Shown here one piece after another: positions 4,726-39,116 of a stretch of 64,000 nucleotides of DNA. This DNA is from an uncultured Clostridia bacterium. GTDB taxonomy: Bacteria; Bacillota; Clostridia; TANB77; CAG-508. Made by a program: the position numbers and the translations under genes. How positions within the stretch are numbered: the stretch's first letter is position 1; the number at the start of each line of letters is the position of its first letter. The stretch spans positions 735 through 64,734 of the forward strand of contig CALXMM010000005.1 of NCBI GenBank assembly GCA_944389475.1, in the 5' to 3' direction. Below the pieces are notes generated by a model. The model made no database searches. It was given only the letters and a program-made list of their open reading frames with translations, and had not been told where the DNA came from.

Positions 4726-4794
4726 CAAAATAAGATTGAAATGGTATTATTTTACTGTAAATTGCAGCTTTTTTATATAGAAAGGACTATTTCT

Positions 4795-5235
4795 ATGAAG
4801 TGCATAGGAATTATCTGGAATTCAGCTTTTCCGTATAGAAAGGAAATGACAGAAATAATTTCTAAATATGCAATATCTATTGGTAGGCAATTTGAAATTA
4901 ATTTAGACAATCAATATAATGACTTTGTAAGGGAAATCTATAATGGTGAAGATATAGAAAATTGGAAAATAGAATCCAAAATTTCACATATGGAAAATAA
5001 TCCAAACAAAGAAGTATATATTGTTTTTTTCGAAATTGATTCAAAAGCTCAGCGATATCATACTAAGAAGAAAAAAATTGTCTATGCTAAATTGCAAGAT
5101 TTAAAAGACTTGTTAAGAAATTCCTATAAGGAAAAAGTAGATAATTATTTTTTTGATATTATTTTTCATTGCACTGAAACAAATAGTGAATTTGATAAGT
5201 GTAATGAGGTTATAAAAAAATATATATCTAATTAG
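4795..5235 (+). CDS. Hypothetical protein (146 aa from the internal ATG)
   Basis: An ORF inside the sugar cluster. GAAAGGA lies upstream of the ATG at 4795. No motif was recognised. Confidence 0.45.
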   Translation: MKCIGIIWNSAFPYRKEMTEIISKYAISIGRQFEINLDNQYNDFVREIYNGEDIENWKIESKISHMENNPNKEVYIVFFEIDSKAQRYHTKKKKIVYAKLQDLKDLLRNSYKEKVDNYFFDIIFHCTETNSEFDKCNEVIKKYISN

Positions 5236-7690: not shown

Positions 7691-8714
7691 AGATATAGAA
7701 GAGAGAATAAATAAAATAACAAATAACAAAGATGAAAAGATATATCCAAGTATACCTAGAAATATGTTAATTGAATGTTCTAATATATGTAATTTGTCAT
7801 GTATATTTTGTGCTAATAGAAAAATGACACGCCCAAAAGGGAAGATTTCTCTAGATTTTGTAAAAAGAATTTTAAATGAAGCATTTGAATTAGGGGTAAA
7901 AGAAGTTGGATATTACACTACGGGAGAACCATTAATAAATGAAGAACTAGAAAAATACATATATATTGCTAAAAATAAGGGATATGAGTATATATATATT
8001 ACTACTAATGGAATATTAGCCAATATTGAAAGAATAAAAAAGTTAGTAAAAGAGGGATTGAATAGCATAAAGTTTTCTATTAATGCAATAAATGAGAAAG
8101 ATTATATATTAATACATGGCAAAAACATGTATAATCTTGTAATGAATAATTTAAAGGAAGTTTATAAATGGAGAAATGATAATAATATCAATTTAAAAAT
8201 TTATGTTTCATATATATCAACTAAGTATACAGAATATGATATAGAGACAATAGAAAATAACTTTAAAGAATTTTGTGATAAGGTTTTAATAACAAATGTT
8301 AGAAATCAATCAGGATTAGTTCCAGAAATAGTAGGAAACCTAGAAAATAAAAATGAAAGTAATAAAATAAAAGGAAAGAGAAATTTACCTTGTTATTATC
8401 CTTTTAATACGATTTGTATTACTTTAGAAGGATATATCACAGCATGTTGTACTGATTTTCAAAACTATTTGGCATATGCTAATCTAAATAAGATGTCGTT
8501 AAAAGAAGCGTGGTATTCAAGTATTATAACAGATTTAAGAAAACAGCATATTTCTGGAAAATTAAAAAATAATTTGTGCTATAATTGTATATATAATAGC
8601 TTAAAAGTACCTGAGCCACTTAAAGATGATTTAGCAACTAAATTTAATGAACAATTGTTGCTAGATAATAAATATATGAAGTCTCAATTAAAAAAATATT
8701 GTCAAAAATATTAA
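7683..8714 (+). CDS. Radical SAM enzyme with C-terminal SPASM-like Cys cluster
   Basis: CxxxCxxC motif (CSNICNLSCIFCAN) and C-terminal Cys motifs (CYYPF..ACCTDF..CYNC). It overlaps the upstream ORF by 8 nt. Confidence 0.85.
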   Translation: MNKDIEERINKITNNKDEKIYPSIPRNMLIECSNICNLSCIFCANRKMTRPKGKISLDFVKRILNEAFELGVKEVGYYTTGEPLINEELEKYIYIAKNKGYEYIYITTNGILANIERIKKLVKEGLNSIKFSINAINEKDYILIHGKNMYNLVMNNLKEVYKWRNDNNINLKIYVSYISTKYTEYDIETIENNFKEFCDKVLITNVRNQSGLVPEIVGNLENKNESNKIKGKRNLPCYYPFNTICITLEGYITACCTDFQNYLAYANLNKMSLKEAWYSSIITDLRKQHISGKLKNNLCYNCIYNSLKVPEPLKDDLATKFNEQLLLDNKYMKSQLKKYCQKY

Positions 8715-8949
8715 TTTTATACAGTAATAAAACTGGTGGTTATGATTATGAATGAAAATATCAAAGTTAATATATTTGATGTTACAGTAATTTTTACAAT
8801 TATACAAAAAACAAACTTAACATGAATAAGTTTTATAAAAAGAGTAAAAAAATAATAATTGGAATAATAACTAATTTTACAATAAGAAAAAAGTAGTGGA
8901 GACTATGTATATGCACTTGCCAGATTTACTAAGACTGATCTTTTAATTA

Positions 8950-20282: not shown

Positions 20283-21164
20283 ATGGAAAAGGATAATATA
20301 GAAAAATTTTTAGCATATAATGGAAGAATAGCTATAACTTGTGCAAATACTTCTTATTTAGTAGAAGAAGCCAGAAAGGTTCACGATTTAAGTCCTGTTG
20401 CAACAGCAGCATTGGGAAGATTACTAACAATGGGAGTAATAATGGCAAGTGATTTAAAATCAGAAAAAGATAATATTACTCTACAAATAAAAGGCGGAGG
20501 ACCAATAGGCAAAATGGTCGCTGTTGTAAACAAAAATTTGCAAATTAAAGGAACAGTAGATAATCCACAAGTAGATGCACCATTAAATGAATTTGGAAAA
20601 TTAGATGTTGGTGGTGTAGTTGGACAAAATGGATATTTGAATGTAATTAAAGACATTGGTTTAAAAGAGCCATATATTGGAGTTGTCCCAATTTCATCTG
20701 GAGAAATTGCAGAAGATTTTGCAAGATATTTTACAGAATCAGAGCAAGTAAGGTCAGCTGTTGCTTTAGGAGTATTGGTTGATAAAAATGGTGTTAAAGA
20801 TGCTGGTGGCTATTTGTTAACAGCTATGCCTGATGCAACAGAAGAAGATATTACAAAAATAGAAAAAAGCATATTTGCAGCAGGAGCAATGTCAAAAATG
20901 TTAGAAGATAATTTATCACTTTTTGATATTGCAAAAAAAGTTACTGGAGATAAACAGGTAAAAGTAATTGAAAAGGATATGCATCCAGAATATAAATGCG
21001 ATTGTAGTAAAGAGAAGATTGAAAGAGCATTAAAAGCATTGGACAAAAATGAATTAAACAAAATTATAGAAGAAGATGGAAAAGCAGAGATAATTTGCCA
21101 TTTTTGTAATAAAAAATATCAATTTTCTAAAGAAGAATTATTAGATTTAGTAAATAAAAAATAA
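20283..21164 (+). CDS. hslO: Redox-regulated chaperone Hsp33
   Basis: Hsp33 length and sequence, with the C-terminal zinc switch CDCSKEK...CHFCNKKY. Confidence 0.9.
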   Translation: MEKDNIEKFLAYNGRIAITCANTSYLVEEARKVHDLSPVATAALGRLLTMGVIMASDLKSEKDNITLQIKGGGPIGKMVAVVNKNLQIKGTVDNPQVDAPLNEFGKLDVGGVVGQNGYLNVIKDIGLKEPYIGVVPISSGEIAEDFARYFTESEQVRSAVALGVLVDKNGVKDAGGYLLTAMPDATEEDITKIEKSIFAAGAMSKMLEDNLSLFDIAKKVTGDKQVKVIEKDMHPEYKCDCSKEKIERALKALDKNELNKIIEEDGKAEIICHFCNKKYQFSKEELLDLVNKK

Positions 21165-24054: not shown

Positions 24055-24735
24055 ATGGTTAGTGAAAATATTTTGATAGTAGATGATGAATCACGAATGA
24101 GAAAATTAATTAAAGATTTTTTGGCTCAAAAAGGATATGGTATTTTAGAAGCTGGAGATGGAGAAGAAGCCCTAGAAGTTTTTGAAGAAAATCAAAATAA
24201 AATAAATTTAATATTATTAGATGTAATGATGCCTAAATTAGATGGTTGGTCTGTTTTAAGACAAATAAGACAGAAATCTCAAGTGCCTATAATAATGCTA
24301 ACTGCAAGAGGAGAGGAACAGGATGAATTGTTTGGATTTGAATTGGGAGTGGATGAATATATATCTAAACCATTTAGTCCAAAGATATTGGTTGCAAGAG
24401 TTGAAGCAATTTTGAAGAGAACTAGAAAAGATACTGACAAAGTTAAGGATTATGGAGGTATCACAATAGATCCTGAAGGAAGAACTGTAAAGGTTGATGG
24501 TAAACAAATAGATTTAAGTTTAAGAGAGTATGAACTATTAAAATATTTAGTAGATAATGAAAACATTGCTTTATCAAGAGATAAAATATTAAATAATGTA
24601 TGGAATTATGATTATTATGGGGATTCAAGAACCATAGATAGCCACATAAAAAAGATTAGACATAAATTGGGTAAAAAAGGAAAATATATAGAAACAATGC
24701 GTGGCGTTGGATATAAATTTGAGGTAAAAGATTGA
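24055..24735 (+). CDS. OmpR-family response regulator
   Basis: Receiver domain (ILIVDDE..LLDVMMPKLDG) plus a winged-helix output domain (RTIDSHIKKIRHKL..RGVGYKF). Confidence 0.9.
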   Translation: MVSENILIVDDESRMRKLIKDFLAQKGYGILEAGDGEEALEVFEENQNKINLILLDVMMPKLDGWSVLRQIRQKSQVPIIMLTARGEEQDELFGFELGVDEYISKPFSPKILVARVEAILKRTRKDTDKVKDYGGITIDPEGRTVKVDGKQIDLSLREYELLKYLVDNENIALSRDKILNNVWNYDYYGDSRTIDSHIKKIRHKLGKKGKYIETMRGVGYKFEVKD

Positions 24736-34729: not shown

Positions 34730-35638
34730 ATGTGGGTATTATTTGCAACTATAACAGTATTATTGTGGGGTACATCAGAAACAATATTTAAAAAAGTATC
34801 TACCGCAGAAAAACATAGCGTATTAAAATTAATATCATATAATGGAATTATTTTGGGAATATGTGCATTTATATTTATGCTAATAACAAGAACAAAAATG
34901 GATTGGGGCATGATATATACATATTTGCCAGTAGCAATAATATATATAACATCAATGTTTTGTACATATAAAGCAATGACTTTAGTAAAAGTTTCAATTT
35001 TATCACCATTGCAAAATTCTTCATGTGCAATAACAACTTTATTATGTATTTTTATATTAAAACAAGAAGTTGGAATTCCACAAATTGTAGCAATTGCTGT
35101 TATTATAATTTGTATGGTTTTATTATCAATAAATAAAGATGAAGTATTAAGATTGGAATCTGGAGATAAAGAAGCAGATGAAAGAAATGCAAGAAGAGCA
35201 TATTTATTATATTTAAAAGGAATTGCATTTGCATTAGGATATCTATTATTAGATGGTATAGGTTCATTTATGGATGATTATACATTAGAAGGTGATTTAT
35301 CTGCAGAACAAGTAATTATAGCTTATTCATACATCTATTTTGTTGTAGGTGTAATATGTGCAATTATCTTAAAAGTAATAGATAAGGATTACAAACCAAT
35401 TAGGAGATTTAAAGAAAATAAACTTAAACTAATTGGAACATTAGTAGAAACAGCAGGACAATATACATATATTTATGCTTTCGCATTTGGTGATGCAGCA
35501 TTAGCTTCTCCATATATTGCAGCATATAGTATTGTAACAATTATATTATCTAGAATATTCTTAAAAGAGAAATTAAAACCTAGACAATATGCATTAATTG
35601 CATTAATTATAGCTGGCTTAGTTACATTGTCTATTTAA
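34730..35638 (+). CDS. EamA/DMT-superfamily transporter
   Basis: A ten-TM-like profile in two halves. GGAGGA RBS upstream. Confidence 0.7.
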   Translation: MWVLFATITVLLWGTSETIFKKVSTAEKHSVLKLISYNGIILGICAFIFMLITRTKMDWGMIYTYLPVAIIYITSMFCTYKAMTLVKVSILSPLQNSSCAITTLLCIFILKQEVGIPQIVAIAVIIICMVLLSINKDEVLRLESGDKEADERNARRAYLLYLKGIAFALGYLLLDGIGSFMDDYTLEGDLSAEQVIIAYSYIYFVVGVICAIILKVIDKDYKPIRRFKENKLKLIGTLVETAGQYTYIYAFAFGDAALASPYIAAYSIVTIILSRIFLKEKLKPRQYALIALIIAGLVTLSI

Positions 35639-35657
35639 TAAAGGTAATATAAAAGGG

Positions 35658-35691
35658 AAAGCCCTTTCCACATAAATGTGGGAAGGGCTTT
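35658..35691. terminator. Bidirectional terminator hairpin
   Basis: AAAGCCCTTTCCACA / TGTGGGAAGGGCTTT hairpin between the convergent EamA gene (+) and the GC-rich gene (-). Confidence 0.6.
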
Positions 35692-35729
35692 ATGTTTGGG
35701 GTACGAGTAGAATGTACAGTGTACAATAT

Positions 35730-36473
35730 CTACTTCGGAGAAGAGTAGATCGAGATGGATTCAATCATTTCCATTGCTTTCTCGAACTTACTCTTCCGGT
35801 CGGTGTCATCAGGAACGAACATGGAAATCTGAAGCAGAACATTCGCATTGATCTTGACAACCGAGAACCTGTAGTCCGCCAGTCGCTCAGCACTCAGGTA
35901 GTTGAATTTTGTAAAGAAGAACGGTACACGATTATCGTGCGACTCCAGTGCATCCAACTTAAGAGTAAAGGCGATTTGGTCTCCAATTGCTAAAACAGAG
36001 AAGCATTCACGGCTCATTGTCAAGAACTTCTGGATCTTGACAATATTGAGCATTTCTACAACCTGTTCCAGCATAGGAATGGACTTCCTGAGAATGAGAG
36101 CGCAGGTCACATCCTCACTGTTTTCGGTTGAGGTAGTTTCCACTGCCTTAGGCTTGTAGGTGTATTTGTCAACAATGGAAATAACAAGCTCGGAACGAGA
36201 CTTATCATATCCAAAAGACATAATGCACTTCTTGAACAGAGCATTGATTGCCGAAACACTAGTGTTAGGCAACGAGCTTGCATTGAAAGCCACTTCGAAA
36301 ACAGGAATAGAATTCTTGTTTCGACGAACCGAAAGCACAAGCTTTTCATCGTTTGTAACAATGAAACCATAGTGACTCTCAGGATTGGCCAGGGCATTCA
36401 GAGCATTGCAAATTGCTTCAATGACTTTGGTGTCATTTTCCTGAATTTTTGCCCGGAAAGAATTGCTTGTCAT
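35730..36473 (-). CDS. Orphan 247-aa protein of foreign base composition, tentatively PCNA/sliding-clamp-like fold
   Basis: GGAGGT RBS about 9 nt upstream of the ATG. The coding region is far more GC-rich than its flanks: 21 of 40 nt in one sampled stretch, and GC3 is 22 of the first 51 codons. The length, the N-terminal SFRAKIQ + helix (VIEAICNALNAL), an internal FFFTKFNYLSAERL helix and the C-terminal ISIYSSPK resemble the PCNA layout (FEARL.., ALRYLNFFTK, YYLAPK). This rests on by-eye similarity only. Confidence 0.55.
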   Translation of the reverse strand: MTSNSFRAKIQENDTKVIEAICNALNALANPESHYGFIVTNDEKLVLSVRRNKNSIPVFEVAFNASSLPNTSVSAINALFKKCIMSFGYDKSRSELVISIVDKYTYKPKAVETTSTENSEDVTCALILRKSIPMLEQVVEMLNIVKIQKFLTMSRECFSVLAIGDQIAFTLKLDALESHDNRVPFFFTKFNYLSAERLADYRFSVVKINANVLLQISMFVPDDTDRKSKFEKAMEMIESISIYSSPK

Positions 36474-36481
36474 AGATGTTT

Positions 36482-36550
36482 TACCTCCAATTGTTTAATT
36501 TATTTGCTGTTATGACTAAGCTTTTTTTTCTTGAAGTTGTACCTCCAATT
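36482..36550 (-). repeat. Direct repeat of an 11-mer containing the Shine-Dalgarno sequence in the leader of the GC-rich gene
   Basis: On the + strand, TACCTCCAATT occurs at 36482-36492 and 36540-36550, which is AATTGGAGGTA twice on the coding strand. Only the promoter-distal copy is followed by a start codon. Confidence 0.6.
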
Positions 36551-36579
36551 CTTTCAAATGTACCAAATGGTATAACTTA

Positions 36580-36608
36580 ATTATACTACAAAAACTCAAA
36601 AAGGTAAA
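36580..36608 (-). promoter_or_regulatory. Promoter candidate for the GC-rich gene
   Basis: On the minus strand: TTTACC (36608-36603), a 17-nt spacer, then TATAAT (36585-36580). Confidence 0.4.
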
Positions 36609-36779
36609 CATAATTTGTATTTGTAGCCATTATGAGGAATTTGTTAGATATAATTTATGTCATTATGAGAAAAATATTATATATAAATTGTTTATTTAAT
36701 GAACTAAGTTAAAAAATTAAGAAAATCTAAATTGATATACTAATATGTACGTGATATAATTTAAAAAAAATTAGAAAGA

Positions 36780-39116
36780 GTGAAAACAGTGCAAAGATAT
36801 AACCCGGATTTTAAAAAAGGATTAAATTACGAACAAGTAAATGAAAGAAAACAGGAGAAACTAGTTAACTTTGATACAACCGTTAAAACCAAAAGCATAA
36901 AATCTATTATTTTTTCAAATATTTTTACCTTATTTAATATAATGAATTTGGTACTTGCTTTGTTAATTGTTTTAGCAGGTGCATATAAAAATTTATTATT
37001 TATTATAATTGTCATTCTAAATACATTAATTAGTACAATTCAAGAAATTCATTCTAAAAGAACGATAGATAAGCTTTCTTTTTTAGTAGAAACTAAATCT
37101 AAAGTTGTAAGGGAAGGTAAAACAGAAGAAATTAGTAATTATGAATTAGTATTAGATGATGTAATAGAACTAAATGTAGGAAATCAAATTCCTACAGATA
37201 GTATTATTTTAGATGGAGAAATCGAAGTGAATGAAGCTCTTTTAACAGGAGAACCAGATAATATAGAAAAAAGTAAAGGCGATAAATTACTTTCTGGGAG
37301 TTACATAGTAAGTGGAAAATGTTTTGCAAAGGTAGAACACATAGGAAAAGAAAATTATGTAGCTAAAATTTCACAAGAAGCTAAGAAGAAAAGAAAAATA
37401 AACTCAGAAATAATGACATCTTTAAGTAAAATAATTAAATTAATATCTTTCATAATAATTCCAGTAGGAATATTACTATTCTTTAATCAATTAGATTTAG
37501 ATAGCTATGATTGGAAAACAGCAGTAGTTAGTACTGTTGCTGCATTAATCGGTATGATACCGGAGGGGTTAGTATTATTAACAAGTACAGTATTAGCTGT
37601 TAGTGTAACTAGGTTAGCAAGAAAAAAAGTTTTGGTTCAAGAATTATATTGTATAGAAACATTAGCCAGGGTAGATGTCCTTTGTTTGGATAAAACAGGT
37701 ACTATAACGGAAGGAAGAATGAGTGTTGATAAAATTATCCCTGCTAAAAATTATACTGAAGGAGAAGTTAAGGAGATTCTAGGAGTATTAGCTAAATATT
37801 CAGAAGATAGAAATTCTACAATAGATGCAATAAGGGATAAATTTTCAACAAACAAAGAATTAAAGATAAAAACAAGAATGCCTTTTAAATCTTCTAATAA
37901 ATGGTCAGGAATTAGTTTTGAAGATATAACCTATGTATTAGGGGCTCCAGAGATTGTTGGAGAAACAAATGATGAAATAAAAAAATATATATCAGATTAC
38001 AGAGTTGTAGCAATTGGAAAAACTAGTGAAGTTATAAATAAAAAATTACCTAAGAATATAGAAATCATTGGATATGTACTAATATCGGATGTAATTCGTA
38101 AAAATTCTAAGGAAATTCTGGAATATTTTGATAAACAAGGAGTAACTATAAAAATAATTTCTGGGGACAATCCTATAACTGTTTCTAATATAGCTAAGAA
38201 AGCAGGGGTTAGGGATTATAATAATTATGTGGATGCGAGAACTTTAAAGACAGATAAGGAAATAAAAGAAGCAGCAATGAAATATACTGTATTTGGTAGA
38301 GTAACTCCAGAACAGAAAAAGCAAATAATCATTGCACTTAAGGAAAACAAACATACTGTTGCAATGACTGGAGATGGAGTAAATGATGTATTAGCATTAA
38401 AGAATGCAGATTGTAGTATTTCTGTGGCTAATGGAAGTGATGCAGCTAGAAACGTATCACAATTAGTATTAATGGATAATGATTTTAAATCTATGCCAAA
38501 TATTGTAGATGAAGGTAGAAGAACAATAAACAATATTCAAAGGTCAGCTACACTATTTTTAGTAAAAACTATTTATGCCACAATATTAGCTATTTTATTT
38601 GTTTTTGTAAATATGCAATATCCATTTATACCTATTCAGATGACTTTAATAAATTTTGTTGTAACTGGAATTCCATCAGTAGTTTTGGCATTAGAACCAA
38701 ACAAAGATAGAATAAAGGGAAGATTTATAATAAATGTAATAAAAAAAGCATTACCAACTGCATTAACAGTGGTTACTAATATAATAATTATTAGTATAAT
38801 TAGTAGTTTATATAATTTGGATGAAGTAAATTACTCAAGTGTATGTGTTGTGGTAACAGCAATAACTGGATTTATATTGCTATTTAGAATATCTAGACCA
38901 TTTGACTTAAGTAGAACAATTTTATTTGTAAGTGTTGTTTCTATATTTACTATAGGAATTACCTTATTTAGAAATGTATTTAATATTAGACTAGATTTAA
39001 GTAATGTTGTACCAATAATAATTTTAGGAATTACCACAATAGCTGTAGGAGTAATATATAATCTTATTTCTAATAGAATTTTTAAATATGTTGAAAAGAG
39101 GTTAGGAAATGATTAG
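36780..39116 (+). CDS. Cation-translocating P-type ATPase (P2/P3-like)
   Basis: CLDKTGTITEG phosphorylation site, TGEP, MTGDGVNDVLALKNAD, and ten TM-like helices. GTG start, with an alternative GTG at 36789. Confidence 0.9.
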   Translation: MKTVQRYNPDFKKGLNYEQVNERKQEKLVNFDTTVKTKSIKSIIFSNIFTLFNIMNLVLALLIVLAGAYKNLLFIIIVILNTLISTIQEIHSKRTIDKLSFLVETKSKVVREGKTEEISNYELVLDDVIELNVGNQIPTDSIILDGEIEVNEALLTGEPDNIEKSKGDKLLSGSYIVSGKCFAKVEHIGKENYVAKISQEAKKKRKINSEIMTSLSKIIKLISFIIIPVGILLFFNQLDLDSYDWKTAVVSTVAALIGMIPEGLVLLTSTVLAVSVTRLARKKVLVQELYCIETLARVDVLCLDKTGTITEGRMSVDKIIPAKNYTEGEVKEILGVLAKYSEDRNSTIDAIRDKFSTNKELKIKTRMPFKSSNKWSGISFEDITYVLGAPEIVGETNDEIKKYISDYRVVAIGKTSEVINKKLPKNIEIIGYVLISDVIRKNSKEILEYFDKQGVTIKIISGDNPITVSNIAKKAGVRDYNNYVDARTLKTDKEIKEAAMKYTVFGRVTPEQKKQIIIALKENKHTVAMTGDGVNDVLALKNADCSISVANGSDAARNVSQLVLMDNDFKSMPNIVDEGRRTINNIQRSATLFLVKTIYATILAILFVFVNMQYPFIPIQMTLINFVVTGIPSVVLALEPNKDRIKGRFIINVIKKALPTALTVVTNIIIISIISSLYNLDEVNYSSVCVVVTAITGFILLFRISRPFDLSRTILFVSVVSIFTIGITLFRNVFNIRLDLSNVVPIIILGITTIAVGVIYNLISNRIFKYVEKRLGND

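What the first reader, a model, noticed from the sequence alone, without database searches (positions are those of the whole stretch)
35692..36608. A single-gene compositional island encodes an orphan protein with a tentative PCNA/sliding-clamp-like layout
One minus-strand ORF (35730..36473) is far richer in G+C than everything around it. One sampled 40-nt stretch has 21 G+C, and third-codon positions are G/C in 22 of the first 51 codons. In neighbouring genes G/C-ending codons are rare. The compositional step coincides almost exactly with the ORF ends. The leader, RBS and promoter-like sequences are host-like and AT-rich, and the 3' end abuts a shared terminator. The higher GC also produces four overlapping shadow ORFs in the track. 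The protein has no obvious enzymatic motif. Its length (247 aa), two-half organisation and several local strings resemble archaeal/eukaryotic-type PCNA rather than the bacterial beta clamp. These strings are N-terminal SFRAKIQ followed by an amphipathic helix, FFFTKFNYLSAERL, and C-terminal ISIYSSPK (compare YYLAPK). A laterally acquired PCNA-like ring protein standing alone in a Clostridium chromosome would be unusual. It could be a phage or defence-related clamp or decoy, or something entirely different.
Basis: partly seen in the sequence, partly recalled or inferred. Interest (0 to 1): 0.8.

Follow-up and report, generated by a model that had tools for sequence, protein, structure and literature searches.

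The report
Hypervariable GC-rich gene cassette in gut Clostridia
The GC-rich gene is real, but it is not a recent import or a demonstrable PCNA clamp: it is one old allele of a swappable, fast-diverging gene of unknown function, found only in one group of uncultured gut Clostridia and with unusual DNA/RNA-level properties.

Summary
ORF 35730..36473(-) has GC 0.43 and GC3 0.51; the other 49 large ORFs in the window have GC3 0.10-0.21.

- The protein belongs to a tiny unannotated family (about 20 clusters among billions of proteins).
- Every member lies in the same slot, between EamA and a P-type ATPase, in one clade of AT-rich uncultured gut Clostridia.
- The slot is a recombination hotspot. 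Flanks are 97-100% identical while the cassette is 40-65% identical, with breakpoints at the gene ends.
- The alleles are old (dS 0.8-2.8) and under purifying selection (dN/dS 0.07-0.28).
- Other genomes carry unrelated GC-richer cargo or a decayed relic in the slot.
- High GC3 persists through near-saturating synonymous divergence. It reflects avoidance of A-ending codons on the coding strand.
- Alleles also carry an excess of short-lived hairpins. One was clearly made by template-switch mutation.

A confident AlphaFold model (pLDDT 87.5) shows two similar α/β halves. Its best fold hits are sliding clamps, but at noise-level TM (0.19-0.29). The profile match to PCNA is 0.2% and the helices are not basic.

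The most likely role is a conflict-type (defence or immunity) cassette. That is an inference, not a demonstrated function.

The parts
35730..36473 (-). Coding sequence of the 247-aa protein: one allele of a clade-restricted, hypervariable family. GC 0.43, GC3 0.51, A-ending codons avoided.
   Evidence: ORF and composition. dN/dS 0.24 against L001. Homologues. Confident AF2 model.
35639..36705 (.). The variable block (cassette) in the window. It runs from the EamA stop codon to the start of the conserved ATPase promoter region. In relatives, identity collapses over the homologous stretch.
   Evidence: Identity profiles between loci. Alignment of occupied and relic sites shows conservation resuming at about 36706.
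35658..35691 (.). GC-rich hairpin (16-nt arms, 94% complementary, 2-nt loop) between the convergent EamA and target genes; probable bidirectional terminator.
   Evidence: I5; sequence.
36474..36608 (-). AT-rich leader and promoter of the target gene: -35 TTTACC at 36608, -10 TATAAT ending at 36580, GGAGG at 36488-36484. It also contains a 22-nt duplicated RBS-containing segment (36475-36496 and 36533-36554).
   Evidence: D3.
36344..36366 (-). In-frame hairpin inside the CDS (TTTCATTGTT-ACA-AACGATGAAA). The codons F-I-V pair with N-D-E. Unique in the window.
36017..36043 (-). Hairpin inside the CDS (TTGTCAAGA...TCTTGACAA) over the conserved VKIxKxLT motif. Unique in the window.
35988..36073 (-). 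11-bp helix inside the CDS (CDS nt 401-411 pairing with 476-486). An equivalent helix is present in the L001 and L012 alleles.
34730..35638 (+). EamA-family transporter gene; conserved left anchor of the hotspot (83-100% protein identity across the clade).
36780..39116 (+). P-type ATPase gene; conserved right anchor of the hotspot. Its promoter (-35 at 36732, -10 ending at 36760) lies in the conserved region.

Best explanation
SHOWN. The ORF is a genuine gene for a soluble, cytoplasmic protein of about 250 aa. The protein consists of two similar alpha/beta halves joined by a flexible linker. It belongs to a very small, unannotated family found only in one clade of uncultured, very AT-rich (about 26% GC, about 1.7-1.8 Mb) gut Clostridia. 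There it always sits between EamA and a P-type ATPase, near spo0A. That slot is a recombination hotspot holding exchangeable cassettes. Old allele lineages are shuffled between genomes whose flanks are nearly identical, with breakpoints at the gene ends. A small divergently transcribed companion gene (lost in the window's lineage) is swapped independently. Some genomes carry unrelated GC-richer cargo, and some carry only a decayed relic.

INFERRED. This population-genetic pattern, in a cytoplasmic protein, most likely marks a conflict gene. Candidates are an anti-phage defence component or an immunity-type protein against competitors' toxins, kept diverse by frequency-dependent selection.

COMPOSITION. 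The GC-richness is not a fresh import. It is a coding-strand avoidance of the host's A-ending codons that persists through near-saturating synonymous divergence. It is therefore maintained, most probably by selection acting on the mRNA or its translation; the purpose is unknown. The alleles also carry an excess of short-lived local hairpins. These are not conserved structures. At least one was generated by template-switch (quasi-palindrome) mutation, and this process probably contributes both to the hairpins and to the clustered divergence between alleles.
For: Real gene: dN/dS is 0.24 against L001 and 0.07-0.28 across allele pairs. The AF2 model with 25 sequences has pLDDT 87.5 and pTM 0.88. 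There is no TM or signal-like segment.

Restricted family: 3, 12 and 17 clusters were found in three searches of 1.8-5.8 billion proteins, none with a name or Pfam domain. All 40+ loci recovered lie in the same slot in AT-rich genomes.

Hotspot: EamA is 98-100% identical while the target is 35-61% identical. Nucleotide identity falls from 97-100% to 40-65% at the EamA 3' end and recovers at the ATPase. The target and the small gene are swapped independently. Allele dS is 0.8-2.8. The slot holds alternative cargo in L032, L034, L042 and L036. L024 keeps an approximately 155-nt relic that is 88% identical to the L013/L022 alleles and contains stop codons. Split or truncated copies occur in L021, L050 and L059.

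Maintained GC3: all alleles are above their flanks (0.23-0.58 against 0.09-0.13). Between the window and L001, the flanking genes retain only 0.12 (CI 0.07-0.18) of their GC/AT state at synonymous sites. Passive decay would therefore need an ancestral GC3 above 1. A3 is depleted (0.15-0.41 against 0.47-0.61) while T3 is unchanged, and this holds in genes on both DNA strands.

Hairpins: codon-permutation z is -3.6 to -9.9 in 9 alleles against a baseline mean of -0.5 (sd 1.2, min -3.75) in 49 window ORFs; Mann-Whitney p=1.7e-6. Stems of 8-19 bp are present. Pairs are not shared between distant alleles and are not maintained by compensation. A cluster of 7 changes in 9 nt created the perfect 19-bp palindrome in L023. 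Clustered differences fall in exact inverted repeats >=9 nt 22 times against 2 for the control.
Against: No functional evidence exists. There is no match to any PADLOC, PHROG or NCBIfam model for the target, the small gene or the alternative cargo, so 'conflict gene' rests only on population-genetic pattern and context.

The window's own allele is only at the edge of the hairpin baseline: z=-3.9, rank 1 of 50, while three ordinary genes reach -3.4 to -3.75.

Alleles outside the window's lineage have GC3 of 0.23-0.36, close to intergenic GC (0.23-0.28). They could simply lack the host's codon preference. Only the window lineage (0.46-0.58) clearly needs an active force.

The decay argument assumes that the target alleles diverged together with their flanks and share the flanks' mutation process.

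The polarised substitution test (47:47) is biased toward 1:1 when outgroups are distant.

Only one template-switch event is unambiguous, out of roughly 100 non-independent clusters.
Confidence: 0.5

Rival explanations
1. One reading: a laterally acquired PCNA/sliding-clamp-like ring protein (a phage- or defence-related clamp or clamp decoy) standing alone in the chromosome.
For: The model has two similar halves joined by a low-confidence linker, and its helices fall at positions resembling those of PCNA. Sliding clamps (PCNA 3k4x at E=7e-4, beta clamps, 9-1-1, T4 gp45, herpesvirus and poxvirus clamp-like factors) dominate the top Foldseek hits in both libraries.
Against: TM-scores are 0.13-0.29, rmsd 15-18 A and probability <=0.54, so the model does not superpose on a clamp. 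Each half has 6 strands, not the 8-9 of a clamp domain. hhalign against a verified PCNA profile gives probability 0.2%. No clamp Pfam family appears for any of the 25 members at E<=10. The four equivalent helices have a mean net charge of -1.5, against about +5 in PCNA. No clamp loader, polymerase or replication genes are nearby. The gene is not a recent acquisition.
Confidence: 0.08
2. The composition and the hairpins have no function. They are neutral by-products in weakly constrained, frequently recombining DNA: relaxed codon-usage selection, GC-biased gene conversion, and accumulation of template-switch mutations.
For: Recombination is associated with higher GC3 across bacteria (Lassalle et al. 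2015, PMC4450053), and this locus clearly recombines. Non-window alleles have GC3 near intergenic GC. Hairpins are not conserved or compensated. One hairpin is demonstrably mutational in origin. Both strands fold well, so the excess is mostly Watson-Crick palindromes.
Against: gBGC is strand-symmetric, but here A3 is halved while T3 is unchanged, and the depletion follows the coding strand in genes on opposite DNA strands. Leader and promoter DNA inside the block is not clearly GC-enriched, at 0.21-0.28. GC3 of 0.46-0.58 in the window lineage is far above any plausible neutral equilibrium. The sense strand is relatively more stable than the antisense in 7 of 7 alleles.
Confidence: 0.3
3. Repeated import: the alleles live in an unsampled GC-richer reservoir (a mobile element, phage or other lineage) and are repeatedly re-introduced into this slot, so their composition is foreign and young.
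For: Cassette-like replacement with sharp borders. Unrelated GC-richer cargo occupies the same slot. GC3 differs between allele lineages, 0.23-0.36 against 0.46-0.58.
Against: Exhaustive searches of 1.84 billion representatives, a 5.8-billion-cluster index, GTDB genomes and JGI metagenomes found the family only in this slot in AT-rich genomes. There are no integrase, transposase or tRNA genes and no conserved border repeats. Phage-family profiles show no match.
Confidence: 0.12
4. A dual-function locus: the transcript is itself a large structured RNA with a function of its own, and the ORF is secondary.
For: A GC-rich, strongly folding stretch of about 750 nt in an AT-rich genome is what large structured RNAs look like. 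z-scores reach -10 to -13 in some alleles.
Against: No Rfam match even at E<=1. The consensus structure across 8 alleles is only -32 kcal/mol. Distant alleles share no homologous pairs. There is no compensatory maintenance, with 630 pairs kept against 692 expected. Purifying selection on the protein and a confident fold are both clear.
Confidence: 0.05
5. An accessory or regulatory subunit of the neighbouring transporter genes (EamA or the P-type ATPase).
For: Invariable adjacency to both genes in every locus.
Against: The neighbours are 83-100% conserved while this gene is 20-60% identical. It is absent, replaced or decayed in genomes that keep both neighbours. It is convergent with EamA, divergent from the ATPase, and has its own promoter.
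Confidence: 0.04

Closest known systems
PCNA / sliding clamps (DNA-clamp fold: PCNA, beta clamp, 9-1-1, T4 gp45, herpesvirus processivity factors)
   Same: Similar length (about 250 aa). Two similar alpha/beta halves joined by a flexible linker. A beta-alpha-beta-beta-beta unit starts each half. Clamps are the commonest class among the top Foldseek hits.
   Different: No 3-D superposition (TM 0.13-0.29). Six, not 8-9, strands per half, plus an extra C-terminal helix. No sequence-profile similarity (0.2%). Helices are not basic. No replication context. Ring formation is untested.
Variable cargo at conserved chromosomal hotspots (defence hotspots or islands; orphan immunity-gene clusters against polymorphic toxins). 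This comparison rests on my own knowledge of the literature and was not retrieved here.
   Same: Conserved flanking core genes. Sharp identity breakpoints. Unrelated alternative cargo in the same slot. Presence/absence variation and pseudogenes. Old alleles under purifying selection. Atypical composition.
   Different: No recognisable defence, toxin or immunity domain. No mobility genes. The cargo family exists only in this one slot of one clade. The cargo is GC-richer, not AT-richer, than the host.
Quasi-palindrome template-switch mutagenesis (known from E. coli and phage T4 genetics; my own knowledge)
   Same: A tight cluster of 7 substitutions in 9 nt converts an imperfect inverted repeat into a perfect 19-bp palindrome in allele L023, relative to L043 and L049. 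Clusters are enriched in exact inverted repeats.
   Different: Seen here as a recurrent feature of natural alleles of a protein-coding gene. Only one event is unambiguous, and no rate was measured.
GC-biased gene conversion in bacteria (Lassalle et al. 2015, PMC4450053)
   Same: Raised GC3 in a gene with abundant evidence of recombination.
   Different: The shift is strand-asymmetric (A3 lost, T3 kept) and follows the coding direction on both DNA strands. The magnitude in the window lineage (0.51 against 0.10) is very large.
Large structured non-coding RNAs of AT-rich Firmicutes (OLE, GOLLD, ROOL, HEARO, raiA classes in Rfam)
   Same: A GC-rich, strongly folding stretch in an AT-rich genome.
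   Different: No Rfam match. No conserved or covarying structure. The stretch is clearly protein-coding.

Membership tests
PCNA / sliding clamp | Sequence-profile similarity to PCNA_N/PCNA_C, DNA_pol3_beta or Rad1/Rad9/Hus1 families | tested here: not met
   Pfam at E<=10 gives no clamp family for the query or any of the 25 members. hhalign of the family profile against a PCNA profile gives probability 0.2%, E 0.33. The PCNA sequences were verified against PDB. The PDB profile search finds nothing.
PCNA / sliding clamp | DNA-clamp fold: two domains, each made of two beta-alpha-beta-beta-beta units, superposable on known clamps | tested here: inconclusive
   Clamps top the Foldseek lists (3k4x at E=7e-4), but with TM 0.13-0.29, rmsd 15-18 A and probability <=0.54. 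Each half of the model is b-a-b-b-b-a-b-b, with 6 strands.
PCNA / sliding clamp | Basic helices lining the DNA channel | tested here: not met
   Net charge of the four equivalent helices has a family mean of -1.5 (range -3 to +1), against about +5 in human PCNA.
PCNA / sliding clamp | Closed ring oligomer (trimer, or dimer for beta clamps) | not testable with these tools
PCNA / sliding clamp | Genomic or functional association with a clamp loader, polymerase or other DNA-metabolism partners | tested here: not met
   The neighbours are EamA, a P-type ATPase, Spo0A, ABC transporters and NUDIX. No replication genes lie next to the cassette in any locus.
Recently acquired genomic island | Atypical base composition with a sharp boundary | tested here: met
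   GC3 is 0.51 against 0.10-0.21, and the step falls at the ORF ends.
Recently acquired genomic island | Absent from close relatives, or present with the donor's composition decaying toward the host's | tested here: not met
   The gene is present in the same slot across the clade down to 20% identity. Passive decay would require an ancestral GC3 above 1. Polarised changes are balanced at 47:47, though that test is weak.
Recently acquired genomic island | Mobility genes, a tRNA target or conserved flanking repeats | tested here: not met
   No integrase or transposase ORF lies nearby. The nearest tRNAs are at 62158-62463. The only bracketing repeat (D5, 17/20) is not conserved in L001 or L024.
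Recently acquired genomic island | Homologues in a plausible donor lineage | tested here: not met
   The family was found only in this slot of this clade.
Hypervariable hotspot cassette (defence- or immunity-island-like) | Conserved flanks with abrupt loss and recovery of identity at the cassette borders | tested here: met
Hypervariable hotspot cassette (defence- or immunity-island-like) | Unrelated alternative cargo, empty or decayed states at the same site | tested here: met
   Alternative cargo in L032, L034, L042 and L036. A relic in L024. Split or truncated copies in L021, L050 and L059.
Hypervariable hotspot cassette (defence- or immunity-island-like) | Divergent alleles that are old and individually under purifying selection | tested here: met
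   dS is 0.8-2.8 with dN/dS 0.07-0.28, while the flanks are about 99% identical.
Hypervariable hotspot cassette (defence- or immunity-island-like) | Recognisable defence, toxin or immunity domains | tested here: not met
   PADLOC, PHROGs, NCBIfam and Pfam give nothing for the target, the small gene or the cargo. The only hit is DUF7689 in the L042 cargo.
Hypervariable hotspot cassette (defence- or immunity-island-like) | Protective phenotype against phage or competitor toxins | not testable with these tools
   Requires experiments.
Structured non-coding RNA | Conserved secondary structure supported by covariation | tested here: not met
   No Rfam hit. Weak consensus fold. No shared pairs among distant alleles. 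No compensatory maintenance.

The most novel reading that the evidence does not exclude
The locus is a new kind of hypervariable conflict cassette in gut Clostridia in which the nucleic acid itself is part of the design. Coding-strand avoidance of A-ending codons and a constantly renewed load of hairpins would be selected, for example to make the mRNA resistant to an A/U-directed ribonuclease or to gate translation. Inverted-repeat-templated mutation would act as a built-in diversifier of a two-lobed protein with a previously undescribed (at most remotely clamp-like) fold.
Probability: 0.15. Interest if true: 0.85.

Novelty: new variant of a known kind. Interest (0 to 1): 0.6.

Why it matters
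If the reading is right, three things follow.

1. It adds an uncharacterised protein family, with a confident new two-lobed fold, to the catalogue of hypervariable hotspot genes. It comes from an uncultured, host-associated Clostridia lineage about which little is known, and it gives a precise, testable locus for defence or immunity function.

2. It is a clean natural case in which atypical composition is not evidence of recent transfer. High GC3 persists through near-saturating synonymous divergence in a 26%-GC genome, it is strand-asymmetric, and it follows the coding direction. That bears on the long-running question of what forces other than mutation bias set GC3 in bacteria.

3. The excess of short-lived hairpins, with at least one clear template-switch event, suggests that templated mutation contributes to allele diversification in nature.

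Tried and rejected
- Pfam, NCBIfam, PHROGs, PADLOC and PDB sequence searches on the protein, on the family profile, on the companion gene and on the alternative cargo were all negative.
- AlphaFold with only 4 sequences failed (pLDDT 33). I discarded that model.
- Rfam on the region at E<=1 and on the whole window at gathering threshold found only three tRNAs far away.
- Conserved antisense or alternative-frame ORFs: the longest off-frame ORFs differ between alleles and track GC content, so the 'shadow ORFs' are by-products.
- A conserved RNA fold is rejected.
- A rod-like (viroid- or obelisk-like) structure is rejected: median pair span is about 30 nt and only 4-20% of pairs span more than 200 nt.
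- Hairpins as copies of a dispersed repeat are rejected: the arms are unique in the window.
- The D5 direct repeat bracketing the block as an insertion scar is rejected: it is not conserved in L001 or L024.
- The parsimony-polarised GC3 flux test (47:47) is downgraded, because with distant outgroups and fast GC-to-AT mutation it is biased toward 1:1. I replaced it with the flank-calibrated decay argument.
- The internal duplication is not significant by sequence: probability 1.9%.
- The metagenome scan with the full family alignment failed for lack of a conserved stretch. It was repeated with a closer subset.
- Literature searches for DUF7689, for the MAG names, and for comparable GC3 and structure phenomena returned nothing specific.
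Full report
**1. The observation**

The minus-strand ORF 35730..36473 (247 aa) is the compositional outlier of the window.
- GC is 0.429 against 0.264 for the whole window.
- GC1/2/3 are 0.44/0.34/0.51. All 49 other ORFs of >=150 aa have GC3 between 0.10 and 0.21.
- Every one of the 15 GC-richest 744-nt windows overlaps this gene.
- The step coincides with the ORF ends, and the leader is 0.21 GC.
- A promoter-like site (36608-36580), a GGAGG (36488-36484) and a 16-bp GC-rich hairpin between the convergent EamA and target genes (35658-35691) are present.
- The four shadow ORFs and the quoted peptide strings exist.
- Twenty, not 22, of the first 51 codons end in G/C.

**2. It is a real protein gene from a tiny, unannotated family**

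Pfam, NCBIfam, PHROGs, PADLOC and PDB sequence searches gave nothing significant.
- A word-indexed search of 5.8 billion clusters found three relatives, at 96, 67 and 60% identity.
- An exhaustive HMMER profile search of 1.84 billion representatives found 12.
- A second indexed search with a 13-member profile found 17 clusters.
- None of these has a name or a Pfam domain.
- dN/dS is 0.24 against the 60% homologue and 0.07-0.28 over all allele pairs.
- There is no TM or signal-like segment.

**3. Context: one slot, one clade**

Every homologue whose context could be read lies between an EamA transporter gene (convergent) and a P-type ATPase gene, a few kb from spo0A. The surrounding genomes have about 26-28% GC.

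A scan of GTDB species representatives using the EamA neighbour returned 24 species. All are uncultured gut Clostridia MAGs (human, chicken, sheep, mouse and other animals), and some have circular chromosomes of 1.7-1.8 Mb.
- Twelve carry the family.
- Eleven of those also carry a divergently transcribed gene of 140-159 aa with no known domain. The window's lineage lacks it.

In relatives without the family, the position just after EamA holds other things.
- L032, L034, L042 and L036 carry different GC-richer genes of unknown function (GC3 0.35-0.42).
- In other relatives the synteny is different.
- L024 keeps an approximately 155-nt relic that is 88% identical to the L013/L022 alleles and is interrupted by stop codons.
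- Split or truncated copies occur in L021, L050 and L059.

**4. The slot is a recombination hotspot with exchangeable, old alleles**

EamA stays 83-100% identical across the clade while the target ranges from 20 to 96%. Examples are L015/L026 at 100% vs 61%, L017/L030 at 99% vs 35%, and L013/L023 at 98% vs 49%.

Nucleotide identity profiles show 97-100% in the flanks. Identity drops abruptly to 40-65% at the EamA 3' end and recovers at the ATPase gene.

The target and the small gene are replaced independently.
- In L015/L029 the target is about 90% identical and the small gene about 45%.
- In L013/L020 the pattern is reversed.
- In one pair the mosaic extends 1.7 kb into the ATPase gene.

Synonymous divergence between alleles is 0.8-2.8 with low dN/dS. 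The diversity is therefore old and maintained, not a recent burst of positive selection. The only hint of relaxed or positive selection is 10 non-synonymous against 1 synonymous difference between the window and its 96% relative, which is too few to test.

No mobility genes, tRNA target or conserved border repeats were found.

**5. Composition: not a recent import**

All alleles have higher GC3 than their flanks.
- The window's lineage (window, L011, L012, L001) is at 0.46-0.58.
- The other lineages are at 0.23-0.36.
- Flanking genes are at 0.09-0.13.

Between the window and L001, six flanking genes retain only 0.12 (95% CI 0.07-0.18) of their GC/AT state at synonymous third positions. Under the same process, passive decay could leave 0.51-0.58 today only from an ancestral GC3 above 1. 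With a neutral equilibrium of 0.23 instead of 0.11, the requirement is still about 1.0-1.5 (my arithmetic).

A parsimony-polarised count gave 47 GC-to-AT against 47 AT-to-GC changes. I regard this test as weak because distant outgroups bias it toward equality.

The enrichment is specifically a loss of A at third positions.
- A3 is 0.15 in the window allele and 0.15-0.41 across target alleles, the small gene and the alternative cargo. It is 0.47-0.61 in flanking genes.
- T3 is unchanged (0.26-0.40 against 0.29-0.42).
- The depletion holds for genes on opposite DNA strands.

This coding-strand asymmetry argues against a strand-symmetric process such as GC-biased gene conversion (Lassalle et al. 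2015, PMC4450053) as the main cause. Non-coding DNA inside the block is only marginally GC-richer than outside (0.28 against 0.23), and most of that comes from terminator hairpins.

Caveat: alleles outside the window's lineage lie near intergenic GC and might merely lack the host's A-ending codon preference. Only the window's lineage clearly requires an active force.

**6. An excess of short-lived hairpins**

The window CDS folds with z=-6.1 against dinucleotide shuffles.

With 40 shuffles each, nine alleles gave z of -4.0 to -10.8 (dinucleotide shuffles) and -3.6 to -9.9 (synonymous-codon permutations that keep the protein and codon usage).

A length-matched baseline over the other 49 ORFs of the window has mean -0.52, sd 1.22 and minimum -3.75.
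- The window allele is first of 50 at -3.9, with a -29 kcal/mol excess against -18 for the next gene.
- It is nevertheless only at the edge of the baseline.
- The family as a whole is clearly beyond it (Mann-Whitney p=1.7e-6).

The small gene (-2.6 to -5.7) and most alternative cargo (-1.1 to -4.8) lean the same way but overlap with highly expressed controls such as rpsB and tsf.

The structures consist of many local, near-perfect stems of 8-19 bp, with a median span of about 30 nt. They are not rod-like.

They are not a conserved RNA fold.
- The eight-allele consensus is only -32 kcal/mol.
- Homologous pairs are shared only between moderately close alleles (z 5.6 and 6.3) and not between distant lineages.
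- When a paired base changes between alleles, pairing survives no more often than chance: 630 kept against 692 expected.

Both strands fold well (antisense z -2.3 to -9.8), and the sense strand is relatively better in 7 of 7 alleles.

A generative origin is directly visible once. The perfect 19-bp palindrome of L023 differs from L043 and L049 by 7 substitutions within 9 nt, and these make one arm the exact complement of the other. Clustered differences lie within exact inverted repeats >=9 nt 22 times against 2 for a plain-reverse control, and 12 against 0 at >=10 nt. Part of that enrichment is expected simply because hairpins are in excess.

I infer that template-switch mutation contributes to both hairpin content and clustered divergence. 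Whether the hairpin load is also selected remains open.

**7. The protein and the PCNA idea**

With 25 family members, AlphaFold gave a confident model (pLDDT 87.5, pTM 0.88).
- Two halves (residues 1-101 and 121-219) each fold as beta-alpha-beta-beta-beta-alpha-beta-beta.
- A low-confidence linker spans 102-120.
- A C-terminal helix covers 224-240.

Foldseek's best PDB and viral hits are dominated by sliding clamps: PCNA 3k4x at E=7e-4, beta clamps, 9-1-1, gp45, herpesvirus and poxvirus factors, and iridovirus PCNA. However, TM is 0.13-0.29, rmsd 15-18 A and probability <=0.54.

Other tests of the clamp idea are negative.
- No clamp Pfam family appears for any member at E<=10.
- The four equivalent helices carry a mean net charge of -1.5, against about +5 in PCNA.
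- No replication partners are nearby.

N-half against C-half similarity is not significant (1.9%), although the alignment equates the two near-invariant asparagines N26 and N143.

Conserved polar residues (E12, N26, K146, K189, N191) do not form a recognisable catalytic motif.

Conclusion: this is a new two-lobed alpha/beta family. A remote clamp-like topology cannot be excluded, but membership is not supported.

**8. Best explanation and alternatives**

What is shown: a clade- and locus-restricted, hypervariable cassette gene at a recombination hotspot. Its alleles are old and selectively maintained, it is recurrently lost, and it has unusual coding-strand composition and hairpin content.

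What is inferred: a conflict role (anti-phage defence, or immunity to competitors' toxins), because that is what this pattern usually marks in a cytoplasmic protein. No known defence or immunity domain supports it.

The rivals are a PCNA-like clamp, neutral by-products including gBGC, repeated import from an unsampled reservoir, a functional structured RNA, and a transporter accessory. Each is weighed in its own entry above.

**9. Novelty and interest**

The kind of locus (variable cargo in a conserved hotspot) is known. The protein family, its predicted fold, and the combination of maintained, strand-asymmetric GC3 with a renewed hairpin load and a documented template-switch event are not described in anything I could find.

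I rate it a new variant of a known kind, of moderate-to-high interest. The function is unknown and the most striking nucleic-acid signals are weaker in the window's own allele than in its relatives.

Noticed in passing
L013:9411-9848(-), L015:4930-5352(-), L017:9406-9849(-) and 8 other loci; absent from window 36474-36779: A 140-159 aa gene with no known domain lies divergently next to the target in 11 of 12 species that carry the family. It has raised GC3 (0.24-0.35) and is swapped independently of the target. The window's lineage (window, L001) has lost it.
   Followed up: partly
L032:7038-7874 and 7984-8904; L034:7042-7878; L042:7093-7608; L036:7973-8719: Unrelated GC-richer genes of unknown function (GC3 0.35-0.42) sit just after EamA in species that lack the family. 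L032 has two paralogues. The L042 protein matches DUF7689 (26.4 bits, above the cut-off). Most also show excess folding (z -1.8 to -4.8).
   Followed up: partly
L024:6907-7317: The apparently empty slot contains an approximately 155-nt relic of the gene. It is 88% identical to the L013/L022 alleles, on the expected strand, and is interrupted by stop codons (ICNVLNALANPTEKNKFKFSISN*). This is gene loss, not primary absence.
   Followed up: yes
L013:11944-13287(-), L015:7524-8861(-): A 445-447 aa MBL-fold / beta-CASP ribonuclease-like gene (below all NCBIfam cut-offs; Pfam Anti-Pycsar_Apyc1, Lactamase_B, RMMBL) lies between EamA and spo0A in some relatives. It is absent from the window, L001 and L017, so it is a second variable position beside the hotspot.
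   Followed up: partly
window 36475-36496 and 36533-36554; 36628-36693: The target's leader contains a 22-nt direct duplication of the RBS-containing segment (86% identical, 58 nt apart). Upstream of it is a 2 x 33-nt imperfect tandem repeat.
   Followed up: no
window 35730-36473 vs L011:575-1318: The window allele and its 96% relative differ by 10 non-synonymous but only 1 synonymous change (omega about 2.8). This is too few to test, but it is opposite to the purifying pattern of all older comparisons.
   Followed up: partly
L017 vs L030, ATPase gene 5' about 1.7 kb: In this pair the mosaic of low identity (65-88%) extends from the cassette well into the P-type ATPase gene and then returns to about 100%. 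Recombination tracts therefore do not always stop at the cassette border.
   Followed up: no
window 24055-24735(+), 4741-5235(+), 20283-21164(+): Three ordinary AT-rich genes have codon-permutation folding z-scores of -3.4 to -3.75, nearly as low as the target's window allele. Some native mRNAs here are also more structured than their codon usage predicts.
   Followed up: no
window 36344-36366 (CDS nt 108-130): This hairpin is an in-frame codon palindrome. TTC-ATT-GTT (F-I-V) pairs with AAC-GAT-GAA (N-D-E) across an ACA (T) loop, so a hydrophobic beta-strand, a turn and a polar stretch are encoded by complementary codons.
   Followed up: no
window 62158-62463(+): A tRNA-Val(TAC), tRNA-Asp(GTC), tRNA-Phe(GAA) cluster. 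These are the only Rfam or ARAGORN hits in the 64-kb window.
   Followed up: no
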